Below, piece after piece: positions 19,077 to 38,545 of a stretch of 64,000 bases of DNA. The translations under genes were made by a program, and so were the position numbers. Below the pieces are notes generated by a model, which was given only the letters and a program-made list of their open reading frames with translations, searched no databases and had not been told where the DNA came from. Each line of letters opens with the position of its first letter. The first letter of the stretch is position 1. Origin of the DNA: Macrostomum lignano (Eukaryota); the NCBI GenBank assembly GCA_002269645.1, contig NIVC01001512.1:211368-275367 (forward strand), given 5' to 3'.

Positions 19077-19509
19077 CCAGTGGCGCCAGCACCATGGGCG
19101 CCAGCACCAGGGACGCCAGCACCAGGGGCGCCAGCACCAGTGGCACCAGCACCAGGGGCGCCAGCACCAGGGGCGCCAGCACCAGGGACGCCAGCACCAG
19201 GGGCTTTAGCACCAGGGGCGCCAGCACCAGGGGCTTTAGCACCAGGGGCTTTAGCACCAGGGGCTTTAGCACCAGGGGCGCCAGCACCAGGGACGCCAGC
19301 ACCAGGGACGCCAGCACCAGGGGCGCCAGCACCAGGGGCTTTAGCACCAGGGGCTTTAGCACCAGGGGCTTTAGCACCAGGGGCTTTAGCACCAGGGGCT
19401 TTAGCACCAGGGACGCCAGCACCAGGGGCTTTAGCACCAGGGGCTTTAGCACCAGGGGCTTTAGCACCAGGGGCGCCAGCACCAGGGACGCCAGCACCAG
19501 GGGCGCCAG
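19077..19509. repeat. 15-bp minisatellite (GCACCAGGGGCGCCA / GCACCAGGGGCTTTA)n, left half, split by the large LTR element
   Basis: The same array resumes at 36374-36541. Confidence 0.95.
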
Positions 19510-20162
19510 TGAAATATTTTAAAATATATTTTCTTGTTCTTCTTCTGGTCTCTCACTTCTATGGCTCTTGTTCTACTTCAAATATCAATGTGAGAGCCAA
19601 ATAACTGAGGCGGCGGATTCAACTGACTTTTCCTGATGATGCAAACACTTGATGTTAACTTACAGACCGTTGTATTTGATGGTCACAATCTCGAGATGTT
19701 ATCTTACAAAATATAATGTCTAAGGTGGAATTCCAAATAAGAAGCTCGTTCGATTTAAGTCACAAGGTGTTTCTAGTTGTTCGGGTGAACCGAAGGTTCA
19801 GTCTATTGTGAAACGTGGATTGGGTGTTGGTTTGGCTTTAGTAAGTCGACTTATAAGTTTTGGTGTTTGGGTTGAGACCCTAACTGTGTCAATCAAAATA
19901 GTCAAACGAGGTAAGCTAGGAGAATGGCGAAGGAGAGGCAAGGGCGAGGAGAGGCGGAGCGAGCAAAAGGCGAGCTTCTTGCTTGGTTAACATGAGCTTT
20001 TATAGTACTTTTCAGTCTTGATCGCATTGGATGGTACATAACTGCTTTTCATTGGTTGAGGTTGGGGTCGTGTCCTCAGCTTTTGCTATTTGGAGCGCAT
20101 TCATTGGTTAAAATACATTCAATCTGGATGGGAGCTTTCTAGAGCCAAAATGTATCACTTCA
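19510..20162 (-). repeat. 3' LTR of the large element (653 bp)
   Basis: TG...CA ends; matches 35721-36373; minus-strand TATAAAA at 19998-20004 preceded by three CCAAT boxes. Confidence 0.95.
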
Positions 20163-20177
20163 TTCGCTCTATTTTTC
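20163..20177 (-). other. Polypurine tract (GAAAAATAGAGCGAA) of the large element
   Basis: Purine-rich run abutting the 3' LTR on the minus strand; imperfect. Confidence 0.6.
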
Positions 20178-20804
20178 GGGGAAGCGAGGCCCTCCGAGCG
20201 CATAAAAACAGAAAAAGTATAGTAGGGGGTTAAAATTGATAAAATTGCAGAAAAAGATAACGCATTGTAGTGAACGAGAAAAGTTGTCGCAGAAAAAATA
20301 GTGCGCAGTGAATAATGTTAGCAAAAATGTTTGAGTAAAAGGGAACCAATTTAAGCAAGGTAACATAGGTTAAAGTACAACATCAGTTTAAATAGCGAAA
20401 GAAGGGATAGCGCAGAGGGCCTTTAGTTAGGCGAAGCTAAACTAGCTAAGCAAGGATGGAATAAAACGCAGCGAGGGTAACCAAAAAATCGATAAAATGG
20501 GTGTACAGAGCAAAATGGAGGTTTAGCGACGCAAGCTTAAAGTGAAAACGCGGTGAGTTAAAAGGAGGGTAATAAAAATCATTGTACAGCGAAAGTTGGG
20601 GGGGGGGTTAGCGAGGAACCGCTCAGCTAATAAATCATGTACAAAGTAGAGGTTAAAATTTTAACTGGGGAAACGAAAAAGATAAAAATTCTAGGAAAAA
20701 GTGTACAGTCCAAAGGGGGTATATAACACAAAGCTTTAAAATGGAGCAAGGCGAGTTAAGCGATTTTTGACTGACGGTTAATAATCAAGTAAATTCGATT
20801 CATC

Positions 20805-21065
20805 ATGAGCACAAGGAAGAACTTGCGGTTTTTGCTAGGCGACTTAGCAAAGCGGTCCCAAGATGATTGGGACCTTGGCGACAGGCGGTGGGCGATCACG
20901 CTCGTCCTTCTCGCTGTGCTGGGAGTGCTGGTGCTGCTGCTGCTGCTGTGCCAATGTTGCCGTTGCTGTCGTTGTTGTCGGCGCAACTGCTGCAGGTCGG
21001 GCGCGCCTGGAGCGTCGACTGCGGTAGCAGATGTGGAGGCGCCGCCAGCGGAGTCGGTGGTGTAA
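20805..21065 (+). CDS. 86-aa single-pass membrane protein with a juxtamembrane Cys/Arg cluster, antisense accessory ORF of the element
   Basis: ATG start, TATATAA at 20720-20726, TM WAITLVLLAVLGVLVLLLLL followed by CQCCRCCRCCRRNCC; GC-rich island in AT-rich flanks. Confidence 0.5.
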   Translation: MSTRKNLRFLLGDLAKRSQDDWDLGDRRWAITLVLLAVLGVLVLLLLLCQCCRCCRCCRRNCCRSGAPGASTAVADVEAPPAESVV

Positions 21066-21622
21066 GAGCCGAGCTGCTTTGCTGGTTCGTCCGGCCTTCT
21101 GAACGCAACAACGGCCCTTTTCAGGGCCACCACTTGATGTGATGCCGAAGTTGTCAGATAAGCAGACTGTGCAGTCATGAAGGAACAAACGTTGTTGAGC
21201 CGTATGCTTTAGTGCTAGTTGGTTGACTTAGGTGAAAGCAGCGCCAGGGACAGAGCGATTTGCAGAGACCAGGCATAGTGTAGGGCGATGGCTGCGTAGA
21301 TCAAGGTTGTGGCTTGAATCCGGTTGAAGCAGCGCCAGAGACAGCAATTGGCAGTGACCAGGCACAGAGCAGCAGTCGTGTAGGTCAGGGTTGGGCAGGG
21401 TTGAGCAGGGTTGAGCAGGGTTGAGCAGGGTTGAGCAGGCTAGCGCGTGATGACTTTTGAAAAAGCAGTTGACAGAATAACAGAGAAAAATAGCGTAAGC
21501 TTTACACAAGTGAGCGCAAAAGAGCGGAGGAGTAATAGGCAGAAGAACGGAAAATATTTTTTTTTAGTATTTTTGAACAATTTTTGTAGTGTTTCAGCGC
21601 TCAATATTGAAGAAAAAGCGGA

Positions 21623-22579
21623 TTAAAATAGTGAGCGATGATGGTGAATCAAGTCATAAAAAAGAGCGTATGCCAGTCGAGCAAAATTAATATTAGGATC
21701 AGAAGGCGGAGAATGTTGAATACGCTTGATGGAGAAGGTATGAAGAGTGGCGTACTCTGGCAAGGTGTTAGGATAGCCAACAAGAGCATTTCGTATACGG
21801 TGAATATCGTATAAATATCGACGAAGGGGAGGACAAGAGAAAGGAAAAATAGTATGGGCAACTACCGAGCGAGAATAAAAATCGATAATTATAAAAGCAA
21901 AGCTTCTTGAACGCGTTGAGAGAATGAAAACAGCGTGGGTAAAGAAAAAATTGTGCGGATACAAACGATTGAGCGTGCGTATCATAGCTTTCTTAGTAGC
22001 ACGAGGAGAAAATGGAGGAAAAATTTGATAAACATAAGGGGCGAGAGAATCGAAGGAGGTTAAATAATTTTGGAGCGTAGAAGTTAACTGTTGCGCCGAA
22101 AGATTAGCAGCATCATGGCGGAATTGTTGCCATGGGTAGCGTAGAGAGGAAAGCAACAGAGGCCAAGTGTCTTGGTTAAAGCGCATGCATGGTTGAGGGA
22201 GAGTAGAAGCAGAGAGTTGAAAGAAATCGTCGATAGACATATTAGGAGAGAAAAGAAAATGTATGATTGGTACAAAGCTGCGGTTGAGAACGTCAGTCAT
22301 AGTGGGAGAAAAGTTCTGTATACGTGGTCGTGAGTGAGTACGACGCAGCACACCAAATAGACTAATTCGTAGAACGCGGAGCATCTTAGGATAAAAGCGA
22401 TGGCAGCGGATAACATAAAAACGAGAGAAGAAAGCGGAGGCCATGCGTAGCCGTTGGGGTTCACCAATAGTTTCAGAATAAAATATTGCTTCAGTGAACC
22501 AAGCAACAACGGTTGCGAGGCAAATAAGATCATGATTTAACTGTGGTCGAATATCCATCGGTTGCGGAAATGGATCCAT
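21623..22579 (-). CDS. 318-aa unknown accessory ORF 3' of integrase
   Basis: Long, non-repetitive, uninterrupted ORF from ATG 22579. Strong splice acceptor ttttctcttttccctctttacattgcAG at 22641-22642, about 60 nt upstream. Confidence 0.7.
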   Translation of the reverse strand: MDPFPQPMDIRPQLNHDLICLATVVAWFTEAIFYSETIGEPQRLRMASAFFSRFYVIRCHRFYPKMLRVLRISLFGVLRRTHSRPRIQNFSPTMTDVLNRSFVPIIHFLFSPNMSIDDFFQLSASTLPQPCMRFNQDTWPLLLSSLRYPWQQFRHDAANLSAQQLTSTLQNYLTSFDSLAPYVYQIFPPFSPRATKKAMIRTLNRLYPHNFFFTHAVFILSTRSRSFAFIIIDFYSRSVVAHTIFPFSCPPLRRYLYDIHRIRNALVGYPNTLPEYATLHTFSIKRIQHSPPSDPNINFARLAYALFYDLIHHHRSLF

Positions 22580-22880
22580 AAGAGAAAGGAAAAAGGAGAA
22601 AAGCAATAGATACACAAAATATTGTTTTAGCGTGTGAGCTCTGCAATGTAAAGAGGGAAAAGAGAAAATTTTTTGTAGCTTTTGTTGATAAAACGGAAAA
22701 TAAAAGTTCATTGTGTCAGTTCGTCAATACTCGTAGTCACGTAAAGAGTCGCAATGCAGGGAGAGAGAGCAAAAGCTAGAAAAGAAGGAAAGAAAAAAGG
22801 AAGAGAAAGAAAGGAAGAGAAAGCAATATTGTCAGTCAAGGAAAAGAAAGGAGAAAAGAAATTTAGAAGATTTTTATCAT

Positions 22881-25800
22881 TCACGACTTCTTGTTCTTCG
22901 ATCTTAGGTTGTAGCCGTGCGTCTGTGGCTGACCTGGTGGCTCATCAGTGGACGTGGTTTGCAGCGCGATGGACTTGCTCAATTGCGGCCGATGGTTGTG
23001 GTGGACCTGAATGTCATCAGTTGTGAACTCAGGTAGGTGACTAGGTCCAGCGCTGAGTCCATCTCCAGGCCATGGTTTCAGCTTGGAGGCATGTACCACG
23101 ATTGGTCGTTCGCTTGGCCGGTTGACATCAGAAATCAGTGCGTTCTGATCGGAGAGCCATGCTAGTAGACGCATTGGGCCACGATAAGGATTGGAGAATT
23201 TTGTCTCCTTCGTTGCTGAGACATCCAAATAGCATCGTGCACCGGGCGTATGTAGCGGCTGTTGGTCTTCTTATCAGAGTTTTCAGCGCGCTGTTCAGCT
23301 GAGTTGTGCAGAAGTTCCTTGGCGACTTCTCTGGCAAGCAGAATAGCTGAACAGGTCAAATTGACTGGTTTAATAACGTCCATGTATGCAGTTGTCTGGT
23401 GTTCCATGATCCGTGCGTTGGGTGGCAGAAAGTCTCGAGCGAAGAACAAGTAGAATGGTGATTCGTTCATCGTTGAGTGAGTGGCGGTATTGATTGCTAG
23501 TGTCACCGCGGGTAGGAAGTCAATCCAGAGATCTGGTTTGTCATGGACAAAGGCCGTAAGAGTTTGCTTCAGTGTCTTGTGTGCGCGTTCGACGAAGTTG
23601 CTGGATGGTTGGTACACCGAGGTGTAGATCAGGTGTATTCCAAGGGCACCCATAAACTCTCGAAATTCTTGCGAGATGAATTGGGGTCCGTTATCTGAGA
23701 TGATGTGTGCTGGTAGTCCTGCGAAGGCGAACACGCGGTTGAAGAGACTGTTGCAGATGGTTGCAGAAGTTGTCTCAGTTAGCGGGATTGTGAACAGGAA
23801 TTTGCTAACGCCGCATTGGGCTGTGAGTATGTACTTGTAGACGTCGCGGCCGTGTGAAGCTGGTGGCAGTGGACCTACAAGGTCGATAGCCAAATGAGAG
23901 AAAACCTCGTTGAATTTGACGGCTTTGTGCAGCGGTCGCAGTCGAGGTGCTGTTTTCGCTTTGTGGCAGATTTCGCAGTTGTTAATGAAATTGAAGACGT
24001 CTTGCCGTAGTGTAGGCCAGTAGTAGAAATGACTGATTTTGTCTGCTGTCTTTTGGTGACCTAGATGACCACCAAGGGCTGTCGAGTGGTTACTTGTCAA
24101 AAGAGCTTCACGGTAGCGTGTTGGTATCACGAGGCGGCTTCGTCCTTCGTCATCTTCAAAGTATAGAGTGTTTCCGTCCAGGAAATAACGTGCCAGGTGT
24201 CGGCGAACATATTGTTGGTCTTTCTTGGACAGCTCGTGAGTGGGTGATTTTTCCGATAGAAGTGCTTTGATTGTTGACAGTAATGGGTCTTGATCAATGG
24301 CATCCTGCAGTCCGTTGAATGTTGACAGCGATTGTATCTGACAGACTTTGGGGATGCGTGAAAGGCAGTCCGCTACTACATTTGATTTGCCTTTCACATA
24401 GTTGAGAGTGAAGTTGTAATCTTGTAGCGCTAGAATCCACTTCTGAAGTCGTTTTGAAATTGGCTGCTTGTCACTGAATAGACTCTTGAGTGGCTGGTGA
24501 TCAGTGAAGACGTGGAACTGTTGATAAGAAGCGTAGAGGAACACGTGTAGCTTCTTTATTGCCCAATAGATGGCGTATGCTTCGCGTTCGATCGGTGGAT
24601 AGCGTTGTTCAATTGAGCTTAACGTCTTAGAGATGTAGGCAACCGGGCGTTGGTGGTTGCTGTCGTCTAGCTGTGAGAGTACTGCTCCAATGGCGGTATC
24701 CGAGGCATTAGTGTGAAGGAAGTACGGTTTTCGCGGATTTGGATGAACCAGTAGTATATCCGTAGAGAGAAGTTGTTTCAGCTTTTCAAAGGCTGTTTGC
24801 GCAGCGTTTGTCCAGACGAATTTGTTGGGTTTTGAAGTGTTTTTGATAATACTCAGAAGTGGTTGTACTACTCGTGAGTAGCCAGCAATGTGCGTTCGGT
24901 AGAAATTTGCAAGTCCAAGGAAAGATTGTAGTTGTTTTAACCGTTTGAGGCACAGGGAAGGTCTTGATTTTCTCGATGAGGCTGGGTGCGGGTCTAATGC
25001 CTTGAGCAGAAACCACAAATCCAAGATATTGTACCTCTGTTTTAGCAAAGATGCATTTTCGTAGTGAAATTCGCAATCCATGATGTCGTAACTTTTGGAA
25101 GAAGCGTTCGATTTCTTTGAGCATGCCGGTGAAGTCTTCGGCGATGAGCATGACGTCATCCAAGTAGGCAATCTGATTTGGAGAGTCAGCTGTTAACAAT
25201 GCTACAAGACGGCACATTAAGCTAGGACTGGACTTGAGTCCTTGTGGTAGTCGATTGAATTCCCAAAGTAGGCCGTTGGGTGCAATGAACGCAGTGTATT
25301 TTGTGCTTTCTGGATCGATCCGAACTTGGTAGAAAGCATCTGCTAGGTCACAGAGTGTGTACAGTTTAGCGTTCTTCAATCGATGTAGCAAATCCGGAAT
25401 CTTCGGAGGTCGGATGCTAGGAGCACGAATTAGCTTGTTCAGTTTTCGGTAATCCGTCACGAGTCTTAGTTGTCGGCGACCTTGAGCGTCGAGCGTCTTC
25501 TTTTCCACGAGAAGACATGGACTCGAGTATTCAGATTCACTCGGACTGATGATTCCCTTTTGACGGAAGTTTTCGATAAGTTCGTCAAACCGTTCTTGTA
25601 GTCCATGAGCGATTGGATAGGGTCTGGACGTGACTGGCTCAGAGTGTGGGTGTAGATGCAGGTGAGCCGTGTATTGGGTAGAGCAACCCATGTCGGTTGG
25701 CAGTAGTGCCAAGACGTCGCGGTACTTGTTCATTAGAGTACTAATTGTTCACTCTGCTCGGTTGAGAGGTGCTGGTTGGCTTGCTTGAGTTGAGTACGGA

Positions 25801-26530
25801 TCATGTCAGTCGTTGGTGTTTCTTGCTGCAGCGTGCGTAGATTGTTGATTTGAGCTGCTGGTCGTACGATGTTGTAGTCAGACATGTTAGCCAGATTTCC
25901 AATGACTTGTTGAGGATGCAAGGTTTGCGTTGTCAGCGACGGGTTGGCAATTTCCACAGTGATAGTTTGTCCGTCCGGGTTGACAGAAACAAGGCAAGTT
26001 GGTATCATCAACTGGTGTTTCTGGATCGTGTGGTCCTTAGGGACGAACAGGACAGGAATCGTTGGCTCATGTCGAGAAGAGAGTTTCAGCGTGACTTGGT
26101 GCGTTGTCTGTGGTGGTAACTCTAGCTTGTTTTGCATCACCGCAGAGGTTTCTTGCAACTGTTGGATGGAGTTGAGCATCGCAAATTGCTCATTGCCAAG
26201 CTTAGCTGTCGCTTTCGAGTAGTCGAATTGTAGTGGTATTCCCAGTGACTTAAAGGTTTCTACTCCTAAGAGTAAATCATAGTCAGCGTCGGGGGTGTCG
26301 AGCACAAAGGCCGATATCTTGTGGTTGCGTCCATCGATTTCGAGATCAAAAGTGGCCTTTTTGTTGAGGTTTAGTTGTTGTCCTCCCGCACAAATGGCGT
26401 TCATGTTGGTGTCTTGTAGTGGTACTCGAAGCTTCTTGGCGAATGCCGGTGAGATGCAGGAGATCGAGGCGCCGCTGTCAATGAGGGCGGTGCATCTGTG
26501 TCGAGTATGCGGTGCGTTGCGGCACCACAG
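22881..26530 (-). CDS. pol: pol region: aspartic protease, RT, RNase H, integrase with GPY/F-like tail; interrupted by 1-nt frameshifts at ~25733, ~24935 and ~23235
   Basis: LIDSGAS (26468-26479), RLVTDYRKLN, DLADAFYQ, LPQGLKSSP, YLDD (25155-25166), RH SQ..RPVAY/TDHQPL/VADCLSR, HHCC zinc finger, IDLVGP..SDNGPQF..ERAHKTLK, NPYRGPMR..VHASKLK. Confidence 0.95.
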
Positions 26531-26829
26531 GTTGATCATAGTTGCTGTTGTTAGATGCTTCAAAACAAAGGCGTATGAGTAGTTTGCTGGCCATTTTGGA
26601 ACTTTAGGTTCTGGCGGTGGTCTCCGTGGTGGCGGAAGGGTGGCACGAAGTTCAATCGTTTCGATGGGTGCCGAGGGTGTTGGCGCTTGTCTCGGTGGTA
26701 TCAGTTGCTGTTGTTGGGAGTAGTCGTTTCGTGATTCCACTCGAGTTGGAGTTCGTTGTTGCCGCAGCACTTGTATAGTGTGCGTTCTGCCGTAACGGAT
26801 GGTGCTGGCAACGCATAGTCGGCCAAGAT

Positions 26830-29445
26830 TGCACACGAAGATAATAACGGCAATGTAGACAATAACAGCTGCTGTTAATACGAACTTTTCTTGATAGTTT
26901 GCGACTAGTCGATCCCAGTTGAATATCGACGAAGACCATAGGTTGAGGAGAGCTAGTTTTGAGTCCAGGAATGCACTGTCAGCATGTGCTGTTCTATGTC
27001 GTGTTCGATTCGGAAGTTTGAAAACCGTAATCAGAAAATCACGAGTTTGCATGAACTGGTGCATTAGGTCGGTCACCGTTATCGGACTACGAAGTGAAGT
27101 ATAATTGATATCTCCCATAGGTTTGGAGATGCTTTCGGAGACTGAAGTTTGCAAATCGGACAACCGATAGTTTTCATCGGATCTGACATTAGCGGTTGTG
27201 GGTTCAAATCTCGAAAAATTTAGTGTGGTCTTGAATAGCATCGATTGTTTAGGCAGGTAGTAGTATGGGAAGGCGTCGCATGAGATTAGAGCTGGAGTAG
27301 CTGTGGAGGCAATACGAGTCGTTGTATCCAAAAATCCAAGAACAGTATAATTTTGTAGGCGGAATTCCAGTGGGGGGCGCGTGAAGCATTGGTTCGTCTT
27401 GTACTTTGGTTGGACAAAGCGAAATTTGTGTAGAGGTTTGCACTGGTAGACGAAGAGGTATCCAGCAATGGATCTAGCTCGCAGGAAAGGATCATTTAAT
27501 AAGAGTCGAGCAGCAAGCGTTGGTTGTGTGTAGTATAGCTGTCGGTTGTACTTGAGATTAGTTGCGTACATCATGCATTGAGTAGTTGCAGCTGTCTGTA
27601 CTTGGAGAAGGTCTTTTCGAGCTTTACTAGCAGCTCCTTGTAGTTGTCCAGCAAGAAGTTCAGCGGATGCGAACGTTGATGAAAGTTGCGCAGTAGAGTT
27701 GCCTGAAGGGGCTGCGATGGTTTTGTCATCTGTGCTTCGCTTGTTGCGTGGTAGTAGTAGGAGATCCGGTTGACCACCTTGTGGTTCGTGATATGGAACT
27801 GCTAGATTCGTATGAATAGAAGCCAGTTGTGGATCTGTTGTTGTCGCTGGTGAGTTTGTCGTGAAGGTTGAGGTTGCAGACTTTGCTGGTGCACTGGTTG
27901 TGCTGCTAGAGGTTGAGGTTGTTGGCGGTAAAGTGGTGGTGGTACGAGGTTGTGTCGTCACTTTTGTTGTCGTCGTAGTTGGACCTGCTGTTGTTGTTGC
28001 TGCTGAGGTTGTAGCAGTTGTGGTTGTTGAAGTTGTCGGTGTTACGGTTGTGGTAGGTATTGTTGTCGTTGTAGTCGGTGGCATTGTCGTCGTAGCTGGT
28101 GGTGTTGTCATTGTAGTCGGTGGTGTTGTCGTTGTCAAAATTGTAGTTGTTGGTGTTGATTTTGTAGTAGTTAGTATCGTAGTTGTTGGCGTCATTGTTG
28201 TAGAAGTGCTTGACGTCGGTGGATGATCAGGTCGTTCTTGTCGTAAAGGTTGCGGCGGTAGGAATTGTCGTGACTGAGTTGTCGTAGTGAAAGGATGTTG
28301 AGTCGTCGATTGCTGAACGGGTAATATTGTTGGTGGCGTTGGTAGTATCGTTGGTGGTGAACGACGTTTTTGTCTCGAAGAAGTGGTTTCTTCGCTAGTT
28401 TGAGGTTTTGGAGTAGCTTCTTCTAATGGGCTTCGTAAGGTGGCGAGAAATTCTGCTTCTTTGTTGTCGAGGATGTCTACGTATAGACCTTGCGTTGAAA
28501 GGTACAACGTCTTACGGACGCCAGTGCAGGTGAGAGTGTGAGTCGACGGCACTGGGTTGAAGGTTAGTCCCAATGTTTGATCATTAGTTAAGAACAAGCC
28601 GGAGTTTAAGTTGCCTTCAAGAGTACGAAATGGTTTTAAAGGACAATCAGCGAGTGGTGGAGGTGTCCAAATAAGATTTAGATGTCTTGGTCCTTTCACG
28701 TCAATTTGGTAGATTGCTTCAGTTTCCAAAGGATCCCAGGGGATGTTAGTATCGGCAAAGGTAGGTTGAAAGCTCGCATTTCTTGTGCAGTTGTTTTAAT
28801 TGTACAAAATTTGTCGGCGAGTTTGCAGTTGTCATTGGGAAGGACAAAGATTCCATTTTTTGATCTGCTGTTGAGTAGGCTGGGATTCCGGTGATCACTG
28901 TTGTTACTATTTGTTCTGAATGGAACCAGGAGTGCAACGCACAGCATTTTGCGTGTTGAATGTCGATTGCAGGCGTTGGATAGACTGAGTTGACGCAGTC
29001 TTTAACACTAATGATCCATCAGGCGATAGCTTTGTTCGTGCCCAGTTTTCACAATCAGCTTGAGTGACTGGTTGCGGTTCCAACTCTACCAGGGCGGATG
29101 TCCAGGTTCTTATCACCGCCTTATCACATCTGATAGTGATTTTCTCGCGGAAACAGACAGTCATAACCAGAGAACTGGTTTCCACGTTCGTTGTGTAAAG
29201 TTCCAGTTTCAACGGGAGTGTCGGCGTCGTTTGGTGTTTGAGCTGTTCACAACGGATCTCATGTGGTATCGTGAAAATTCGTGGGATCTGGTTGTACGGA
29301 CAGACCATTGGTGTGTCAATGAAGCCCTCGTGAGATTGTCTCTCGATCGATGGTGGAGTTGACGTCGTTATCGGCGTAGCGTTGGCTAGTGCGAAGAGTG
29401 AAGTTGCTAGGCACAGGAGAAAAAGTGCCAGTAGTGATCGGCGAA
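26830..29445 (-). CDS. env: Envelope-like glycoprotein (class III, gB/chuvirus-G-like) embedded in the polyprotein; ~3 frameshifts at 28780-28945
   Basis: Internal signal peptide RRSLLALFLLCLATSLFALANA, Cys-patterned ectodomain (PMVCP..IPHEIRC, LELYTTN, VCFREK, ADCENW, NCKLADKFC, LIWTP..C, LLAGQLQ, QPTLAARLLL, YQCK, CFTRP, GFLDTTTRI..SC), furin sites RQKRR and RNKR, TM FVLTAAVIVYIAVIIFVC. Confidence 0.75.
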
Positions 29446-29449
29446 TTCC

Positions 29450-31285
29450 AACGGAAGCTTTCACGGTTTTCTCGCGGTTGTTGTTGCTGGTCGGTGGAGT
29501 GTAGGTGTCAGTCATTCTTTCAACCGTACAAAGGCGGATAGAGTTGATAGTCGCAGAAGCAGTAGTCGGTTTTTTGAGTAAGGATTTCAGCTGCTTAGCG
29601 TCTCCAGAGTAGCGAATTTCGTTTCCAAAAGTCGGTGGGCGTTCATCAACTGTAGCAATGTGCATCAGTTGGGCAGACTCGGGAGCGTCGTGAGTCGTCC
29701 ATCCAATCTGCGGCTGTTGATTCCATCCTGGGTGGGACGTTTCAGGGTCCTGAGCAGTGATGGCGCGTATCGGTGGATATTGTTGTTGCGCAAATCTCGG
29801 AGGTTGTCGTTGATTGTTGGCGCCGTTGTATCGAGGCGGATAGCGTTGCTGAGGCCGGTTTCCATAGTCTTGACGGGGTGGAAATCGTGATTGTTGTGTC
29901 GCCGGTGGACCGTAGCCTTGTGTACGTTGGGCTCGTAGTCGGCACTGGTTAATAGAGTGTCCTGGTTTTCGGCAATAGTTACAGGTCAATCGTGGCGGTC
30001 CCTGCTGGTAACGATTCGCGGGGCATCAGAGCCGTATTGGCTGTGTTCCTTCGATCGCTTGAGTTAGGTCGGAAGGGACGAGGTTGTTGTCATTCCTTCG
30101 ACGACAGTCGGCGGCATAGTGTCCAGGTCGACCGCAATGATAACAAGTGGGCTTCTGTTGCATATTAGCGATAGGTGGCTTGGTTTGTGTTTGCAGGGAG
30201 GCAACCACCTGCTGATTGGCTTCCTTCGTCGTTTTTTCTAAGGTAGTTAGACGCTCTGTGAGAGCTTTCAAGTCAGTGCCATCAGAGTCCATGGTGGAGT
30301 CGCGGATTTGTTCGGCGCGGATGGCCTTGTTGATTAGCGTACTTTCCGTGGTGATATTTTGCTTCAAGAGTTCTCGTTTGATGTAGGGTAGAGCATTGTT
30401 GATAGTCGTAGCCATCAGGGTAGCAAGGAAGTCTCGGTTGCGCTGGTCGATGACAGCTTGGTTCGCGGGTGGTGTTTCCGGACCGGCACCTTCCGGAAAT
30501 TCTTCCGGTATTTCCGGCATAGCTGACCTGAGCTTTCGACGAATATCGGTGAAATAAGACAGGAACGGTTCGCCGTACTGTTGTTTCCGGGTTGTTGCAT
30601 TATGCAGCGTTAGAGCCGAGCCAATGGTTACTTCCCGAAGGCGTTGAGACAGTGCCTCAATGGTGGCTGGATAAGAGGCTTGGACTGCGGCAGAGAGGCG
30701 ACTATATTCGAGTTTAAGAAGGTCATTCAGTAGTCGCGGGAAGAGCCGAATCTTTGCGTTCTCCGATAGTCCAAAGGAGCGTGTGATCAAGTCGAACTCT
30801 TCAGTGAAGGAACGGAAGTCATGCATTTGGTCGATTCCTTTCAGGGATTGACGAATTTCAGCAAGAGCAGTAGCTGAGACGGGATGGTTTGATTGCAATT
30901 GCAGACTGCGGTTCATAACATCAGTAAGTTCACGGACAGCATTTGTCGCTGCAGCATCAACATGGGGAGCGCCGTCCTGATCAGCCATATCTAGAGTAGA
31001 TTCTTCAGCAATATCGTTTGGGGCTTGTTGAACTGTTTCGTCCGCGTCTGTTAGGATGGAACTGGGTGCTGGTGAGTGTGCACGGTTGTGTTCAAAATGA
31101 TCCGCGAGAGGGTTATTAAACTCAACGTTATCTGGTATAAACAGGTTAGGTACTGGTGAACTATTTCGTGGGAGCTGTTCACCTATTTGGCGGTCAGAAG
31201 TTTCTAAATTTTGTTCAGGGGGTCTGTTAATATTTGAGCTTTGAAAAACTGGTCCGGAACGTAAATCTCGGACAGGTGTGGTCAT
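29450..31285 (-). CDS. gag: gag with two CCHC zinc knuckles; an in-frame TGA at 30026-30028 separates the knuckles
   Basis: ATG at 31285, retrotransposon capsid-like core (FRSFTEEF...KIRLFPRLL...RKQQYGEPFLSYFTDI), CYHCGRPGHYAADC and CNYCRKPGHSINQC. Confidence 0.85.
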
Positions 31286-31495
31286 TAACAAGAATTCAAT
31301 CAATAATTTCAAGGCAACAATAGCACAAAAGTGTAACTAATAGCAAAGTAGAGTGTCAAATTCAAAGTGAGCAAACGGCAATGGCTTTCAGGGTTGCGGT
31401 TGGCGGACTGGCTGGAGAAGGGAGAAAAAGAGAGACTGTGTAATTTTTTTTTAACTGTAATCTGCGACGAGCTTTGAAAATCGAAGTAATTTTGA

Positions 31496-31735
31496 ATTGA
31501 ACTGCCTTTTGATTGGTTCTGAAACTTTGAATTTTGAAATTTTGAACTCGGAAATCTTGAATTGAACTGCCGTTTGATCGGTTCTGAAACTTTGAATTTT
31601 GAAATTTTGAACTCGGAAATTTTGAATTGAACTGCCGTTTGATCGGTTCTGAAACTTTGAATTTTGAAATTTTGAACTCGGAAATTTTGAATTGAACTGC
31701 CGTTTGATCGGTTCTGAAACTTTGAAACTGAATTT
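31496..31735. repeat. 65-bp tandem repeat (~3.7 copies) in the element leader
   Basis: ATTGAACTGC at 31496, 31561, 31626 and 31691. Confidence 0.9.
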
Positions 31736-32453
31736 GATAAAGGAGCTCCTGAATGTTGGACTAGACGGACATCAGTGGTGGCCAATAAAAATCGAATTTG
31801 TATCATTGAAATCGGCAGTTTTCTTTTTCTTGAAGTCGGCAGTTTATTCTTTTGAAGTCGGCAGTTTTCTTCTGAGAATTTGTTCTGGCTTTTTGAATTT
31901 CGAATTTGAATTTTGAACTATCTGACGAGTTTCAGCTAGGGGGTTGATTTCATAATTTTAAGCAAACGTAGAGTAATGTTTTTGTAGTTTTGTAAATTTG
32001 CTATTTTTTAATTTTTGAAAATTTTATAATTTTTATTGATCGGACTGATCATTTTGTAACTTTAACATGATAAGAGCAGTACGGGTTGTACGAAATGAAC
32101 TATAAGCAATGGTATTGTTTTTTGTGTTTTCAAGTTTTATTATTTTTTGCGATCTAATGATCATTTTGAGTTTGTCGCAGGCTACGAAAATACTATGTGA
32201 ATAGTCTAGCATAGATGAAGCGAAGAAGAGTAAATGGAGACGTGCGTTTTTTTGAGGTTTTAAATTTTTTGTATTTTTTTGTCGATCAAATGATCATTTT
32301 CAAAGTAGGGTGTACACCATGCAGTTTAAAGTAACAGAAAGTGAATTGGAAATGAGACTATGATCAAAAGACAATGAGAGAGTATAGTATATTTACAGGG
32401 CCCAAGGGGGGCTGATGCTGAGGCGATAGAAATTGCGGCTTATGGGGGGGGAA

Positions 32454-33263
32454 TCAATCAGGACGACCACCGCATGCGGAGGCGAGGAGTTTGGGGCAAG
32501 GAGAGTCGCTAACGTCGAAACAGGGGTCGTCGGTGAAGTCGGGGTGGCCAACTATATGTTCCCGGTGGAACCGAGGGAGGGTGAGGAAATGAGCTTCAAT
32601 GGCCTGACCTCTAGAACTGCCGCGATGGCGCGTCCAGGTCGACCAGAAGTGGTAGCGAAGTTGGTAAGAGGCAAGGTGGAACAGGCTTAAGGGTGAGTCG
32701 GAAACGGGGGGAACAAAGCTCTGGAGCAATAGTTCGTGGCGTTCACACTCCTCGTCATCAATTTTGCGACAGTATATTCGGCGGAGATCTTTGTAGCGAA
32801 GAGGAACGCCGGTATGAAAATCAACGCAACGCAGAGCGCGGAAGAGTAGCTCGAAGTTCTGGCATCGGAGGGCTATATCGACGATTGCGGACTTAAAAGC
32901 TCCTTGCAGGGGCGGCAGATGGAAGCCTTCGAGATGGAATAGCATATTGTCTATCTGCCCCGGGATGTGGCATTGGAGGCAGTCATAAATGTGGGTCAGG
33001 TAGGAATCAGTAATGGCGAGGACAAACTTGGTTACGGGACCAGGGCGTCCATTACAACTGAAGAGATCGTGAAACAGGGAATCCGGGATTGCGGGCTTGA
33101 CGGTTTGAGGAAGCGGAAAGGGCGAGAGATAGGAGGGGCAATAGTAAATGAAACTGCGGCGATGTTGGCAATAATACGTCTGACACTGGCAATCAAATAG
33201 TGGGACATCATCAGGGGCAGTAAGGGATGCGGCTTCAGCGTAGATACGTGCGAAAGTAGTCAT
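32454..33263 (-). CDS. 269-aa unknown Cys/His-rich accessory ORF upstream of gag
   Basis: ATG at 33263, uninterrupted and non-repetitive; BC-box-like PLSLFHLASYQL at 32658-32693. Confidence 0.7.
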   Translation of the reverse strand: MTTFARIYAEAASLTAPDDVPLFDCQCQTYYCQHRRSFIYYCPSYLSPFPLPQTVKPAIPDSLFHDLFSCNGRPGPVTKFVLAITDSYLTHIYDCLQCHIPGQIDNMLFHLEGFHLPPLQGAFKSAIVDIALRCQNFELLFRALRCVDFHTGVPLRYKDLRRIYCRKIDDEECERHELLLQSFVPPVSDSPLSLFHLASYQLRYHFWSTWTRHRGSSRGQAIEAHFLTLPRFHREHIVGHPDFTDDPCFDVSDSPCPKLLASACGGRPD

Positions 33264-33655
33264 GTTGAAATTATAATGAGTGAATTAAAGCACTTTAATT
33301 TAATTTACAGTGTTACCAAGTTGCTGGAACGGTAGAGACTGGATGTGAAGAGTGTCGTTCTTGCAGTTGGCTTCGGTAGTACTGGAGAGGAGATTAACTC
33401 AAGAGTGCAGGATTCTGTCAATCTATAGTGCTGCAAAAGTGCTAGTATAATAGTGCTGTTGATGGCGAATTCTGAAGGGAGTTGGGAACAGAGTTTGCGG
33501 CGTCCTCATTGGTTGGTTAGGGGGATTCCAAGCCATGCCTGGGAGACGGGGCGGTTATATTGGTGAAACTGAAGGGGGACGGGTAAGGCTTGCTACTCCT
33601 TCGCGACTCCGCTACTTCAAACACTCCCGGACGACGATTGCTCGACTTATTCATT

Positions 33656-33937
33656 ATGGCTATGCAAGCTCAACTCGAAAGGACGAGGAAGACGGCGGAT
33701 CAATGGTGGTGGCTCTGTCGGCGGTTGTGGGAACTCGAATTGCTGCTGGAGGACGGTTGGCCCCGCGACACGAAGCGGGGTGCTCGGCGGGGTTTGCGAC
33801 TCCTGTCAGCGTTCAGGCGGCTAGTCACACCCGTCCGTAAGTGGTGTGAGCGCCGCCTCGAATGGTGGCAGGAGCTCCAGCATGTGGAAGAAGAGATTGT
33901 CGCAGGACGCCGTTGGGGTAATTTTATCTTAGTTTAA
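33656..33937 (+). CDS. 93-aa Trp/Arg/Leu-rich helical ORF, antisense within the element leader
   Basis: ATG at 33656, weak TATA-like TTATAT at 33555-33560 with an upstream ATTGG; amphipathic-looking sequence. Confidence 0.35.
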   Translation: MAMQAQLERTRKTADQWWWLCRRLWELELLLEDGWPRDTKRGARRGLRLLSAFRRLVTPVRKWCERRLEWWQELQHVEEEIVAGRRWGNFILV

Positions 33938-35705
33938 TGTAATTGAAGGGGCTAACCGACTGAAGGTAGGGGTAATCTTGAATTTAATTTTTTTGTAATT
34001 TTGTATAGTTTTTGTAGATATGCTAACGACAATTGAATTGCTTATTAGTGTACATATATTTATATTGTTATTGTTGCGATTACCCTTTTGTACGTGTGAA
34101 TGTTTTTGTAAAAAAATACATAACTAACCTGTTTAACTATTTGAATTGATAAAGGCTGCTCAGGTTAGAGGGGGGGCTATGGGTAGGGCTCAATCTTGAC
34201 AAAGCAAAGGATGGATAGCGTAAAAAGTAGTTTTCGTAAAAACGGGAACAAGATGGTTAACAAAATAAGTAGGGCAAAAGCTGTATGGGGCACTAAGCAT
34301 CTATTGCCTTTGGCAATAGGGAGATGAGAGAAAAGTAGAAGTTGTTTGGATCTTAATCCATCATACAAAAACGAGAAATGGCTAGGAGAAGAAAAAATTC
34401 CTGGGGAAATTGTTTATCAGAGATCGTGAAAAGGTCGCTGAACCGGAGGGTGAGTGGCAGGATGGAGCTGGCCTGGACAGTTTGATTAAGGAAAAGATTT
34501 TTTGTGGGAGATAAAGTTGAGTGATGGTTTTAATCAAGAAAAGAGGTCTCTCTGGGAGGTCAAGTAGGCACACAAAGTCTGATTTGGGCAGTTTGTTTAA
34601 GATTAATATTTATTGGAGGGAACTGGAGTTGATTAAACACGCAAGAAATTCCCAGCATCCCGAATGATCCATAGAAGGCAACTGCCAGAATCAGCAATCC
34701 GAAAAAAAACTTGGGTCGATAAGGATTTGATGGATGGGGCTCGTGGGGTTTGCAAACAGTGAGTTTGGAGTGTTTAATCAAGAAAAATAATGAAAGGCTA
34801 GGCAAGCGGTCTACGAAAATCAGAAAAGTTTTCCGGATGAAGCACGCAGGTTCGGCAAACAATTGGTTGGGACTTTAATCAAGGAAAATGATGAATGGTC
34901 AGGCAAGCAGCCTGTCGGATAAGCGAAAAAAATTTTTTTTTTGTTGACAGCAAGAAATTGGTGGCTCCAGAGTTTGATTAATATTTGCTGAAGTGACTTT
35001 GTTTGAATAGCTCGTCAGGTTTTTTGCGTTTTCGTTCTTTCTTTCGGGCGCTTAACGGCGCAGAGAATCTGAGATAAGCCAGTTTTCTAGATGTGGCCAC
35101 ACACTGGGAAAAACCGAGAAGGAAAACGAATGGCTCAGTCGCTTTGGAGAGTTTCAAATATATATGAAGAAATCCAGAGCAGACTTTGCTATTCTGTGGA
35201 AAAGCAGTGAAGGAAGAGGCGTCCAACATTAAATAAACTTGAACAATTGATGATGCCGCGGTCTTTGAAAAATCGAAGCTTTGAAGCTTGAACAATTGAG
35301 GATCCGAATAACTGAATTGAATTTCTGCATTGAAGCTCTGAGGCTTGAGAATAAGAACTCGATATCAGACGTTCGTCGACGTTTCTTGAATTGAATTGAA
35401 GTTGAAATTGAAATTGTTCCGGAACGATAATGTATTGACTTTCATGGATCCTTTGAATTTGAAACAACTTGAATCAGGTCTCAGTGCACTGGACAAAACT
35501 TAGAACCGATTTGAATTCTGAATTTGAATTTGAGAGCTCGTGATTTACGATTCATTCGTCGAATATGTATTATTGACAGTCTCGAATGCTCAAAGGGGAG
35601 GGGGGGAGCCAGTCCAACCGTTCACACCCATCAGCCACGCCTATAGCTGTCTACCCCATGCAGGGCATAGCGGCTATTGTGGTGAAAAGCATCGGAGGAA
35701 AAGTA

Positions 35706-35719
35706 CGGTCAGGGAACCA
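35706..35719 (-). other. Primer-binding site complementary to the tRNA-Glu 3' end (TGGTTCCCTGACCG)
   Basis: The plus strand reads CGGTCAGGGAACCA, the 3' end of animal tRNA-Glu(CTC), one base from the 5' LTR. Confidence 0.85.
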
Positions 35720-35720
35720 G

Positions 35721-36373
35721 TGAAATATTTTAAAATATATTTTCTTGTTCTTCTTCTGGTCTCTCACTTCTATGGCTCTTGTTCTACTTCAAATATCAAT
35801 GTGAGAGCCAAATAACTGAGGCGGCGGATTCAACTGACTTTTCCTGATGATGCAAACACTTGATGTTAACTTACAGACCGTTGTATTTGATGGTCACAAT
35901 CTCGAGATGTTATCTTACAAAATATAATGTCTAAGGTGGAATTCCAAATAAGAAGCTCGTTCGATTTAAGTCACAAGGTGTTTCTAGTTGTTCGGGTGAA
36001 CCGAAGGTTCAGTCTATTGTGAAACGTGGATTGGGTGTTGGTTTGGCTTTAGTAAGTCGACTTATAAGTTTTGGTGTTTGGGTTGAGACCCTAACTGTGT
36101 CAATCAAAATAGTCAAACGAGGTAAGCTAGGAGAATGGCGAAGGAGAGGCAAGGGCGAGGAGAGGCGGAGCGAGCAAAAGGCGAGCTTCTTGCTTGGTTA
36201 ACATGAGCTTTTATAGTACTTTTCAGTCTTGATCGCATTGGATGGTACATAACTGCTTTTCATTGGTTGAGGTTGGGGTCGTGTCCTCAGCTTTTGCTAT
36301 TTGGAGCGCATTCATTGGTTAAAATACATTCAATCTGGATGGGAGCTTTCTAGAGCCAAAATGTATCACTTCA
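35721..36373 (-). repeat. 5' LTR of the large element (653 bp)
   Basis: Matches 19510-20162; minus-strand TATAAAA at 36209-36215. Confidence 0.95.
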
Positions 36374-36541
36374 CCAGCACCAGGGGCGCCAGCACCAGGG
36401 GCTTTAGCACCAGGGGCTTTAGCACCAGGGGCGCCAGCACCAGGGACGCCAGCACCAGGGGCTTTAGCACCAGGGGCTTTAGCACCAGGGGCGCCAGCAC
36501 CAGGGACGCCAGCACCAGGGACGCCAGCACCAGGGGCGCCA
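36374..36541. repeat. 15-bp minisatellite, right half
   Basis: Continuation of the 19077-19509 array. Confidence 0.95.
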
Positions 36542-38545
36542 ACATCAGTAGCGCCAGATTGCTTCCCTTGATTTGAATTTGACTATAGAAAAAATCAGGC
36601 CAAACAATTGGAATAGTGATGCAATTTTCACACTTGCGCGAGTCAGAGCGTTCAAAATCAGTGATGCAAATTGGAATCAAGAAATTTTTATATCCATGAA
36701 GCTGGCCACGCCTTCACCACTGCTCTGCCCATCAGCATCAGATCATTAGCTTTGCTGGGTGCGGATGAGAATTTGAAGAGCGATTCCAGAAGCGACCAAG
36801 CCCGAGCACCGGTGTGCCAGGAATGAAATTTTCTTGTCCGCCCCCGGCCTTCATCAGTAGCCGCGGTTCGTCTGCAAGAGTTGGGGGAAAGGAGGAGAGC
36901 CTGACAGTCTCTGGAGGGACTTCTTTTGACATGATCAAAACACAGAGCAGAGCGCTATCAGATGAGTTTGGGAGATGGGTCTTTGATAGAAGCTACTTTG
37001 CTGGCCGACAGGACTGCCTAAACAAGTCGAAAGGCAGTCGGCTGCCTCCCAGTCTGACAAAGCTTAATGTCCATATATAGCACAGATACTAGAGTAACTA
37101 GATGGGCCACCCAGCACATTTGCATGTAAGCTACTTTCAGTTCAGTAGTATGTTAAACAGAAGCATTTTAATGTACTTTTAAAGCCAAGGCTCATTTATT
37201 AGCTCTTACCAGCCAGCTTAAACTCTTCAACCGCGCATTTCCACACTACACCCCCCCGCCCCGCCCAATTTTTATTGCCTTTCTCGGAATTAAGCCTAAA
37301 GCGGCCATGTACATTTCAGTGGACTGGCTAATGTACATTATGGCTGAACCAATTAGCAAGCTGTTTACGTCTGCAAGCTTGGGCTTCTAAACTTATCAAA
37401 GTTATCTCAGCTGCCTTTATTTTTATAAAATAGCTTATGTATGCTTCTTTGCTACTGAACTGAAAGTAGAAAGCTGTTTACTAAGTGTAAATGCCTGAAT
37501 GGCCCATTTAGTTATTCTAGTATTAGTGATATAATAGCAAGAAAATAGAACCCAGCCTTAAGAAGTAAACTATTTTTACGATACAAATCCATTCAACTCG
37601 AGAGCAAAAGGCCACCTCTATTCCCCTTAGTTTCTATTCGGACTGATGCCATCAAAAGCCAAATAAAGGCATCATTTTTTTTGCGTGACCGATCGAATTT
37701 CGAACTCGTTCCTTTCAGGTTCATTAAAATTGATGCTCTAACAACTGCCTCTATTCCTATTGGGATCCTTCAAAGCAAAATAGCCTCAAGACAAAAGACA
37801 GGTTTGGCGAGAGCTGATGCCGAGAGAAAGGGAGAGAGGTGCACTGCATTGCCCAGACTCCCTAGCCACCGCGCCCCAACGGACTTCTTCGCGATCCGCC
37901 CACGCGGCCCTCTCAACGGCCTGAGTGCTCAGGGATAGCTGGCAAAAATACTGAAATGAGGAAGGAAGACAGAAGAGAGGAACGGGGGCAGGGGGCGAAT
38001 GCGACTGCGGACCGAATGAAGCCGGGCGATGGAAATCGAAGAGGAAAGAGAAAGCCCGGCCCCTCAGCTACCCCACCACCCCTGCAGAGAGAGTAGATGT
38101 AGACGGCAGAGGGGATCTCAAGACTGGGGGAGCAGAAATTCTGCGACAAATCGCGACGGGACACGGAGTCCCGGAGGGTGGGAAAAGGGAGGGGAGAGAA
38201 AAATGAAGACTGATTGGGATCTGAGACTGGCTATCCCTATCTAGCCATCCTGCCGCACCAGGCATCCTTCCATTTTTCTCAACACTCGCTTCATCTCCCA
38301 GCCACCCCCCCCCCGGGCACCCGGCAACCCCAGCCGCCTCCCCCAGCCTTGGTAGGCCACTCACTGGTCGAGCCGGGCCATAGCCAGTCCCAGCTGCTCA
38401 GATGGCGCCTGGCTTTGCCGATACAATCCCAGATTGCATTATTCCCAGGTTAAAAATAGTCCTGTCCTGCCACAAATCATTCCTTTCTCTTGACTACTTG
38501 GCTACTGATCTGATAATTTGGACTCTCGTTCGACTGTCTGAAGTC

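What the first reader, a model, noticed from the sequence alone, without database searches (positions are those of the whole stretch)
22881..31285. Gypsy retroelement with gag-ENV-pol order: envelope inserted between nucleocapsid and protease
Seen: on the minus strand the capsid and two CCHC knuckles run in frame into a signal peptide and glycoprotein ectodomain (ORF 28907-29989). The rest of the glycoprotein, its TM anchor and the DSGA protease share one 998-aa ORF (25733-28729), followed by RT-RH-IN. Established: retroviruses, errantiviruses and env-bearing BEL/Pao elements (Tas, Cer7, Atlas, Anakin) place env after integrase. Inference: this is a distinct architecture in which env is part of a ~2,800-aa polyprotein, an independent env capture and a candidate infectious endogenous virus lineage. 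I know of no described example, but I could not run a search.
Basis: partly seen in the sequence, partly recalled or inferred. Interest (0 to 1): 0.93.

Follow-up and report, generated by a model that had tools for sequence, protein, structure and literature searches.

The report
Flatworm retroelement with mid-polyprotein envelope
This is a real, recently inserted virus-like jumping gene with its envelope gene in the middle of one long protein; that layout is already published for nematodes, bryozoans and flatworms, so what is new is only this family and a few small extra genes it carries.

Summary
The element is real: 16,864 bp, identical 653-bp LTRs, 4-bp target duplication, tRNA-Glu primer site. 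Order is gag, env, PR-RT-RH-IN. The env folds like herpesvirus gB and nyamivirus G. It is no nested insertion, and a chimera is very unlikely: 21 of 21 places holding gag, env and RT keep this order. Natural copies read through every junction; sister copies have one 2,859-codon frame.

The layout is not new. PMC13524379 describes GAG-ENV-POL Ty3/gypsy errantiviruses with gB-type env in nematodes, bryozoans and flatworms, citing Sacco 2022 (not held). Nematode polyproteins of this order share the env, which argues against an independent capture. This family differs from the published Macrostomum element in LTR and primer site.

What remains of interest: a mucin-like insert between two furin motifs, two orphan ORFs (one weakly SOCS-box-like), and an antisense 86-aa membrane gene under purifying selection (dN/dS 0.07-0.13). 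Verdict: new member of a known kind.

The parts
35721..36373 (-). 5' LTR, 653 bp, TG...CA, TATAAAA at LTR position 159
   Evidence: 0 mismatches to the 3' LTR
35706..35719 (-). primer-binding site, 14 nt complementary to the 3' end of tRNA-Glu
33656..33937 (+). antisense ORF, 93 aa, gene status unproven
   Evidence: 30 matches in the genome, several with stops; no Pfam hit; selection not tested
32454..33263 (-). upstream extra ORF, 269 aa, SOCS-box-like C-terminus (weak lead)
   Evidence: in family copies; dN/dS 0.31-0.58 in 4 pairs; Atlas 0.93 with low recognition; Pfam none; model pLDDT 38
31488..31726 (.). 65-bp tandem repeat, 3.7 copies, in the leader before gag
30026..31285 (-). gag: capsid-like region and first zinc knuckle, ending at an in-frame stop in this copy
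   Evidence: capsid identity inferred from position, no Pfam capsid hit
28907..30025 (-). second knuckle, linker, internal signal segment (29434-29378) and start of env ectodomain
26825..28795 (-). rest of gB-type env: furin motifs at 28375 and 27748 flanking a Thr/Ser/Pro-rich mucin-like stretch (28297-27802); TM 26881-26825
25733..26824 (-). env cytoplasmic tail and aspartic protease (LIDSG at 26485), same frame as env
22881..25748 (-). RT (YLDD at 25166), RNase H and integrase, in three frames in this copy
21623..22711 (-). downstream extra ORF, 362 aa, orphan
   Evidence: in family copies; dN/dS 0.27 and 0.46; no Pfam or Atlas hit
20805..21065 (+). antisense 86-aa single-pass membrane protein gene: TM 31-49, then a Cys- and Arg-rich stretch
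19510..20162 (-). 3' LTR, 653 bp; target duplication CCAG at 19506-19509 and 36374-36377 inside a 15-bp tandem array

Best explanation
A young insertion of a multi-copy Ty3/gypsy errantivirus of the described GAG-ENV-POL type, in a flatworm (Macrostomum, inferred from the label of the sister polyprotein). Shown: one reading frame makes Gag-Env-Pol, and env has a gB-type class III fold. Inferred mechanism: Gag is made in the cytosol; the internal hydrophobic segment sends the ectodomain into the ER and signal peptidase frees Gag; the TM segment stops transfer and returns PR-RT-RH-IN to the cytosol, tethered to the env tail until the protease cuts it free. Furin-type cuts on both sides of the mucin-like stretch could release it. 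The tether would bring Pol to the budding membrane, so enveloped particles could carry the element between cells of one worm, as Drosophila gypsy does. The breaks in the window copy are probably assembly errors, less probably new mutations.
For: LTRs, duplication, primer site. Same order and spacing in 21 of 21 places with all three matches; 4 more places lack a part. Unbroken natural frames: L034 gag to protease, 2,086 codons; L033 env to RNase H, 1,753; L031 and L032 protease to integrase. Sister copies of 2,859, 2,859, 2,859 and 2,866 codons. Foldseek: HSV-1 gB E 1.8e-14, nyamivirus G E 1.4e-19. Env dN/dS 0.10 and 0.17. 73 of 152 proteins examined join env to a knuckle or a protease in one chain. 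PMC13524379 states the order and env type for flatworms. An independent insertion (C362; other flanks, identical LTR) differs from the window by 41 substitutions and 22 indels, 21 of one base, over 8,445 bp.
Against: No copy of the window's own family was seen with the whole frame open; only four were fetched. TM-scores to gB are low (0.30 by query, 0.34-0.41 by target; sequence identity about 9%), with 309 of 851 residues under pLDDT 50. Signal peptide and TM rest on hydropathy alone. Processing, particles and infectivity are untested. The breaks were not checked against reads.
Confidence: 0.9

Rival explanations
1. Env is a nested insertion or a chimeric assembly, not part of the element.
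For: The window copy is broken in several places, two near the env start. The assembly shows many one-base indels.
Against: 21 of 21 complete places share the order. Copies have different host flanks. The longest word shared by the two env borders is 9 nt. The only RT match without env lies at a contig end. The order recurs in unrelated datasets.
Confidence: 0.01
2. An independent env capture in this lineage, unrelated to the nematode GAG-ENV-POL elements.
For: In the quick RT tree the local families (support 94, unstarred) and the nematode-labelled proteins (98) form separate groups, with 4 label changes. PMC13524379 says these elements are not monophyletic by POL.
Against: A profile of four local env families finds the nematode envs (P0035 E 4.9e-24, P0069 E 3.7e-19) at the same place in the polyprotein. 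The tree does not rule out one origin (forced changes 1) and its careful search did not finish. The paper reads the pattern as rearrangement within old gB lineages.
Confidence: 0.12
3. Env is kept but no longer drives spread between cells; the element moves inside the cell and env acts only as a membrane tether.
For: No particle or expression data exist here. A long low-complexity insert splits the ectodomain.
Against: Purifying selection on the ectodomain, nine nearly invariant cysteine or aromatic columns among 72 aligned rows, and retention in at least four families.
Confidence: 0.2

Closest known systems
GAG-ENV-POL HSV/gB-type errantiviruses of Nematoda, Bryozoa and Platyhelminthes (Chary and Hayashi, PMC13524379; Sacco et al. 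2022, seen only as a citation)
   Same: Ty3/gypsy pol, env between gag and pol, gB-type ectodomain between a signal segment and a TM, multi-copy, flatworm host.
   Different: 16.9 kb long (the paper set aside LTR pairs over 14 kb apart); mucin-like insert between two furin motifs; extra sense and antisense ORFs. The main text has 0 occurrences of polyprotein, single ORF, accessory, antisense or mucin.
Platyhelminthes_Rhabditophora_Mlig_errantivirus_2 (supplementary file 1 of PMC13524379)
   Same: Same order and env type; same host species by inference. Its primer site and LTR length fit the third family found here (L027/L028).
   Different: LTR 864 versus 653 bp; different primer site. The third family is 43% identical in RT to the window's element, lacks the mucin insert and carries RING-like ORFs instead.
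Env-bearing BEL/Pao elements (Tas, Cer7, Atlas, Anakin; layout recalled, Atlas and Anakin papers seen as search listings only)
   Same: LTR retroelements with a captured RNA-virus-type glycoprotein; Atlas is recalled as a single polyprotein.
   Different: Env follows integrase; pol is BEL/Pao; Atlas env is phlebovirus-like (listing).
sORF2/FAST-like proteins of MDG1-group elements (PMC11952523, passages)
   Same: 63-107 aa, ectodomain of about 30 residues, one TM, basic stretch after it.
   Different: Those are sense-strand, mostly myristoylated, and occur in elements without env; this ORF is antisense, has no Gly2, has nine cysteines and sits beside a full env.

Membership tests
Ty3/gypsy LTR retroelements (Metaviridae) | LTRs with TG...CA ends, target-site duplication and tRNA primer site | tested here: met
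Ty3/gypsy LTR retroelements (Metaviridae) | pol order PR-RT-RH-IN | tested here: met
Ty3/gypsy LTR retroelements (Metaviridae) | RT nearer to Ty3 than to retroviral or caulimoviral RT | tested here: met
   Ty3-G Gag-Pol E 2.5e-33, next entry 5.6e-25, MMLV about 1e-17, HIV about 1e-11; no BEL/Pao RT could be recognised among the rows shown
Ty3/gypsy LTR retroelements (Metaviridae) | classification by GyDB profiles and named clade | not testable with these tools
   no GyDB or Repbase library on hand
GAG-ENV-POL gB-type errantiviruses | env lies between gag and pol | tested here: met
   21 of 21 complete places
GAG-ENV-POL gB-type errantiviruses | HSV/gB-type class III ectodomain | tested here: met
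   Foldseek gB E 1.8e-14; PF24664 E 8.2e-4 for this family, 5.4e-8 and over the cut-off for the fourth family
GAG-ENV-POL gB-type errantiviruses | ectodomain flanked by signal segment and TM | tested here: met
   hydropathy only
GAG-ENV-POL gB-type errantiviruses | placement among the published elements in the POL tree | not tested
   published sequences were not in hand; own tree is quick and without those references
Mlig_errantivirus_2 (published element) | 864-bp LTR and its listed primer site | tested here: not met
   653-bp LTR and tRNA-Glu site
Env-bearing BEL/Pao elements | env after integrase | tested here: not met
sORF2/FAST-like proteins (for the 86-aa ORF) | short, one TM, about 30-residue ectodomain, basic stretch after the TM | tested here: met
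   TM 31-49; 5 Arg/Lys in residues 50-66
sORF2/FAST-like proteins (for the 86-aa ORF) | N-terminal myristoylation glycine and sense orientation | tested here: not met
   Ser at position 2; antisense
sORF2/FAST-like proteins (for the 86-aa ORF) | cell-cell fusion activity | not testable with these tools
   needs a bench assay
SOCS-box (ASB-like) proteins (for the 269-aa ORF) | C-terminal SOCS box | tested here: inconclusive
   Atlas 0.93, 10 of 10 best hits share the family, but recognition 1532 is under 2300; Pfam has no SOCS hit at E 10; model unusable

The most novel reading that the evidence does not exclude
This family is a 'complex' errantivirus with accessory genes, as lentiviruses are among retroviruses: an antisense, probably palmitoylated small membrane protein (a FAST-like fusion helper or a Vpu-like antagonist) and a captured SOCS-box adaptor that recruits a host cullin ligase against a defence factor. 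A related family carries RING-like ORFs, which would point to repeated capture of ubiquitin-ligase parts by these elements.
Probability: 0.3. Interest if true: 0.65.

Novelty: new member of a known kind. Interest (0 to 1): 0.3.

Why it matters
The headline layout is published, so the finding mostly adds a young family to a known group. It does give clear evidence that Gag, Env and Pol form one chain that must cross the membrane twice, and it does so in a laboratory flatworm where expression and particles can be looked for. If the extra ORFs are accessory genes, they offer a handle on how invertebrate errantiviruses counter host defence.

Tried and rejected
Pfam gave nothing for env in the window's ORFs at E 0.1; weak hits came only from cut pieces. 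A PDB sequence search reached gB only at E 0.06 or worse. The first exact tRNA pattern and the Rfam tRNA search did not yield the primer tRNA; a looser pattern did. The 269-aa ORF had no homologue among 475 candidates and its model has pLDDT 38, so no fold search was run. The 362-aa ORF had no Atlas hit. The careful RT tree did not finish; the quick tree used all 25 env-first rows but only 31 of 96 env-less rows. The RT pair window/L034 runs across a frame break and was dropped; sister-family dS was saturated. A sense-strand reading of the 86-aa ORF region was considered: it shares third positions and scores pN/pS 0.38 against 0.29, but carries a stop in L035 where the antisense frame is open. 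Sacco 2022 is not held. Earlier scan findings: none.
Full report
OBSERVATION. The region lies inside a complete LTR element on the minus strand, 19510-36373 (16,864 bp). The two 653-bp LTRs have 0 mismatches and TG...CA ends, with a CCAG duplication inside a 15-bp tandem array. One base after the 5' LTR come 14 bases complementary to the 3' end of tRNA-Glu genes of this genome. Pfam finds two zinc knuckles (E 4.2e-6 and 0.031), an aspartic protease, RT, RNase H and integrase in that order, and nothing in the segment between the second knuckle and the protease. That segment opens with a hydrophobic stretch (29434-29378) and closes with another (26881-26825).

IS ENV PART OF THE ELEMENT? I searched the genome with RT, the env C-part and gag and hand-picked the rows of the window's own family by identity, leaving out the more distant families. 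They fall at 25 places. 21 have all three parts, and 21 of 21 run gag, env, RT with like spacing. Of the other four, two end at contig edges and two show gag without env or RT. In four fetched copies, natural open frames cross every junction: gag to protease in L034 (2,086 codons by direct translation; one search lists 2,263 for that place), env to RNase H in L033 (1,753), protease to integrase in L031 and L032. None of the four is open throughout. A sister family (RT about 75% identical) has single frames of 2,859 or 2,866 codons that hold gag, env and RT at four places. More distant families show frames of 2,538, about 2,500 and 2,458 codons with env before RT; two were checked domain by domain. 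Copies have different host flanks. A nested insertion is excluded and a chimeric assembly is very unlikely. The copy on C362 is a separate insertion whose 3' LTR is identical to the window's; its body differs by 41 substitutions and 22 indels, 21 of them single-base.

WHAT THE ENV IS. The natural ectodomain of L034 (851 residues, 72-row alignment) gave a model with mean pLDDT 67 and a disordered middle. Foldseek ranks herpesvirus gB first in the PDB (5v2s, E 1.8e-14; all 30 rows shown are gB) and nyamivirus, entomopoxvirus, rhabdo-like, chu-like and gB proteins in BFVD (best E 1.4e-19). TM-scores are only 0.3-0.4. Pfam PF24664 hits the C-part of 4 of 4 families, over the cut-off in one. So this is a class III, gB-type fusogen. 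This family and its sister carry a Thr/Ser/Pro-rich insert of about 160-190 residues at the place where the two other families have a single furin motif; in this family a furin motif stands on each side. Env dN/dS between copies is 0.10 and 0.17.

HOW WIDESPREAD. A profile of the four envs finds 387 representatives at E 0.001 or better; 150 were listed. Of 152 proteins then in hand, 73 have env in one chain after a knuckle or before a protease (three are P0001, P0002 and P0004, the first from this genome), 75 show env alone, 2 have env after protease or integrase only, and 2 show other patterns. Of 20 looked up, three carry eukaryote names, all nematodes (Globodera rostochiensis, Caenorhabditis tropicalis, Panagrolaimus superbus); one carries a bacterial bin label, probably contamination. 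The sister polyprotein P0002 is labelled Macrostomum lignano, from which I infer the host. The nearest solved RT is that of Ty3. In a quick tree, the local families group with three other env-first proteins (two inside, P0053 just outside), apart from the nematode group; one origin is not ruled out.

MECHANISM. Shown: one frame, two hydrophobic segments around a gB-type ectodomain, protease in frame behind it. Inferred from general membrane-protein biology: Gag stays cytosolic, the first segment acts as an internal signal and is cut by signal peptidase, the second stops transfer, and Pol hangs on the env tail until the protease frees it. This gives Gag, Env and Pol in equal amounts unless splicing or decay intervenes. 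Transfer from soma to germ line by enveloped particles is inferred from Drosophila gypsy as summarised in PMC13524379.

WHAT IS KNOWN. PMC13524379 (seen: abstract, passages, section 5 part 1 of 2, section 14, searches in supplements; figures not visible) states that errantiviruses of Nematoda, Bryozoa and Platyhelminthes carry only gB-type env, arranged GAG-ENV-POL, and credits Sacco et al. 2022 for the nematode case. Its supplementary file 1 lists nine flatworm elements, one from Macrostomum lignano. That element has an 864-bp LTR and a primer site that match the third family here, not the window's. Sacco 2022 is not held, so whether it already reports a single frame is unknown to me; the eLife main text has no occurrence of polyprotein, single ORF or fused. 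PMC12801592 (passages) surveys 137 LTR families of this worm, and the passages shown do not discuss env; its supplements, which I did not open, may hold this family. A search for flatworm, retrotransposon, envelope and gag-env-pol together found 0 papers.

WHAT IS LEFT OVER. Between the LTRs lie ORFs outside the polyprotein. (a) An antisense 86-codon ORF at 20805-21065 encodes one TM followed by a Cys- and Arg-rich stretch. 16 of 20 genome matches, the window included, cover at least 84 codons without a stop. Against six diverged copies dN/dS is 0.07-0.13 with dS up to 2.6 (all pairs share the window copy, so they are not independent). Indels are multiples of three and third positions change most. 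Five of six copies keep the ATG start; L038 lacks it. It resembles sORF2/FAST proteins in size and layout but fails their glycine and orientation criteria (PMC11952523, passages). (b) A 269-codon ORF before gag has Atlas hits to SOCS-box clusters (0.93, low recognition) and, by eye, a BC-box-like and a Cul5-box-like motif (motifs recalled); Pfam and folding do not confirm it. (c) A 362-codon orphan follows integrase. The sister family showed no comparable ORF of 120 codons or more inside its LTRs, while the third family has two RING-like ORFs below the Pfam cut-off. Searches for such accessory genes showed no description for these elements; one search listed antisense ORFs in plant Retand elements (listing only).

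VERDICT. A real and well-supported element whose headline feature is already in print. New member of a known kind; interest 0.3. The accessory-gene reading has probability 0.3 and would deserve 0.65.

Noticed in passing
L027:2527-3195 and L027:1824-2456 (minus strand): The third GAG-ENV-POL family carries two ORFs of 222 and 210 aa after integrase, each with RING-like cysteine clusters (best E 2.1e-4 and 2.5e-4, below cut-off).
   Followed up: partly
L029:2796-3578 (minus strand): The fourth family has a 260-aa orphan ORF after integrase, 1,038-bp LTRs and a primer site like the window's tRNA-Glu site.
   Followed up: partly
G000:C1861:79732-88595; G000:C87; G000:C2121: Derivatives with accessory ORFs, some also with gag, but no env or RT match of this family nearby; probably internally deleted, non-autonomous copies.
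   Followed up: no
L038 (G000:C2121:53600-54020): The antisense membrane ORF is followed directly by sequence like the window's other antisense ORF (33656-33937), although the two lie 13 kb apart in the window.
   Followed up: no
G000:C1753:202221-209380: The 93-aa antisense ORF recurs at about 3.4-kb spacing, mostly with stops, as if in a tandem array.
   Followed up: no
window 19077-19509 and 36374-36557: The element inserted into a 15-bp minisatellite; sister copies on C247 and C270 also sit beside tandem arrays. The window holds dozens of arrays, so no preference is shown.
   Followed up: no
P0154, P0155, P0053: Close env-first relatives (RT region 57-59% identical for the first two) from other datasets, two labelled as bacterial bins; likely animal DNA in those bins.
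   Followed up: partly
L024:7008-7679 and L024:8901-9755: An integrase-like fragment of another element and a membrane-transporter-like host exon (recalled likeness to sodium-phosphate cotransporters) beside the sister copy.
   Followed up: no
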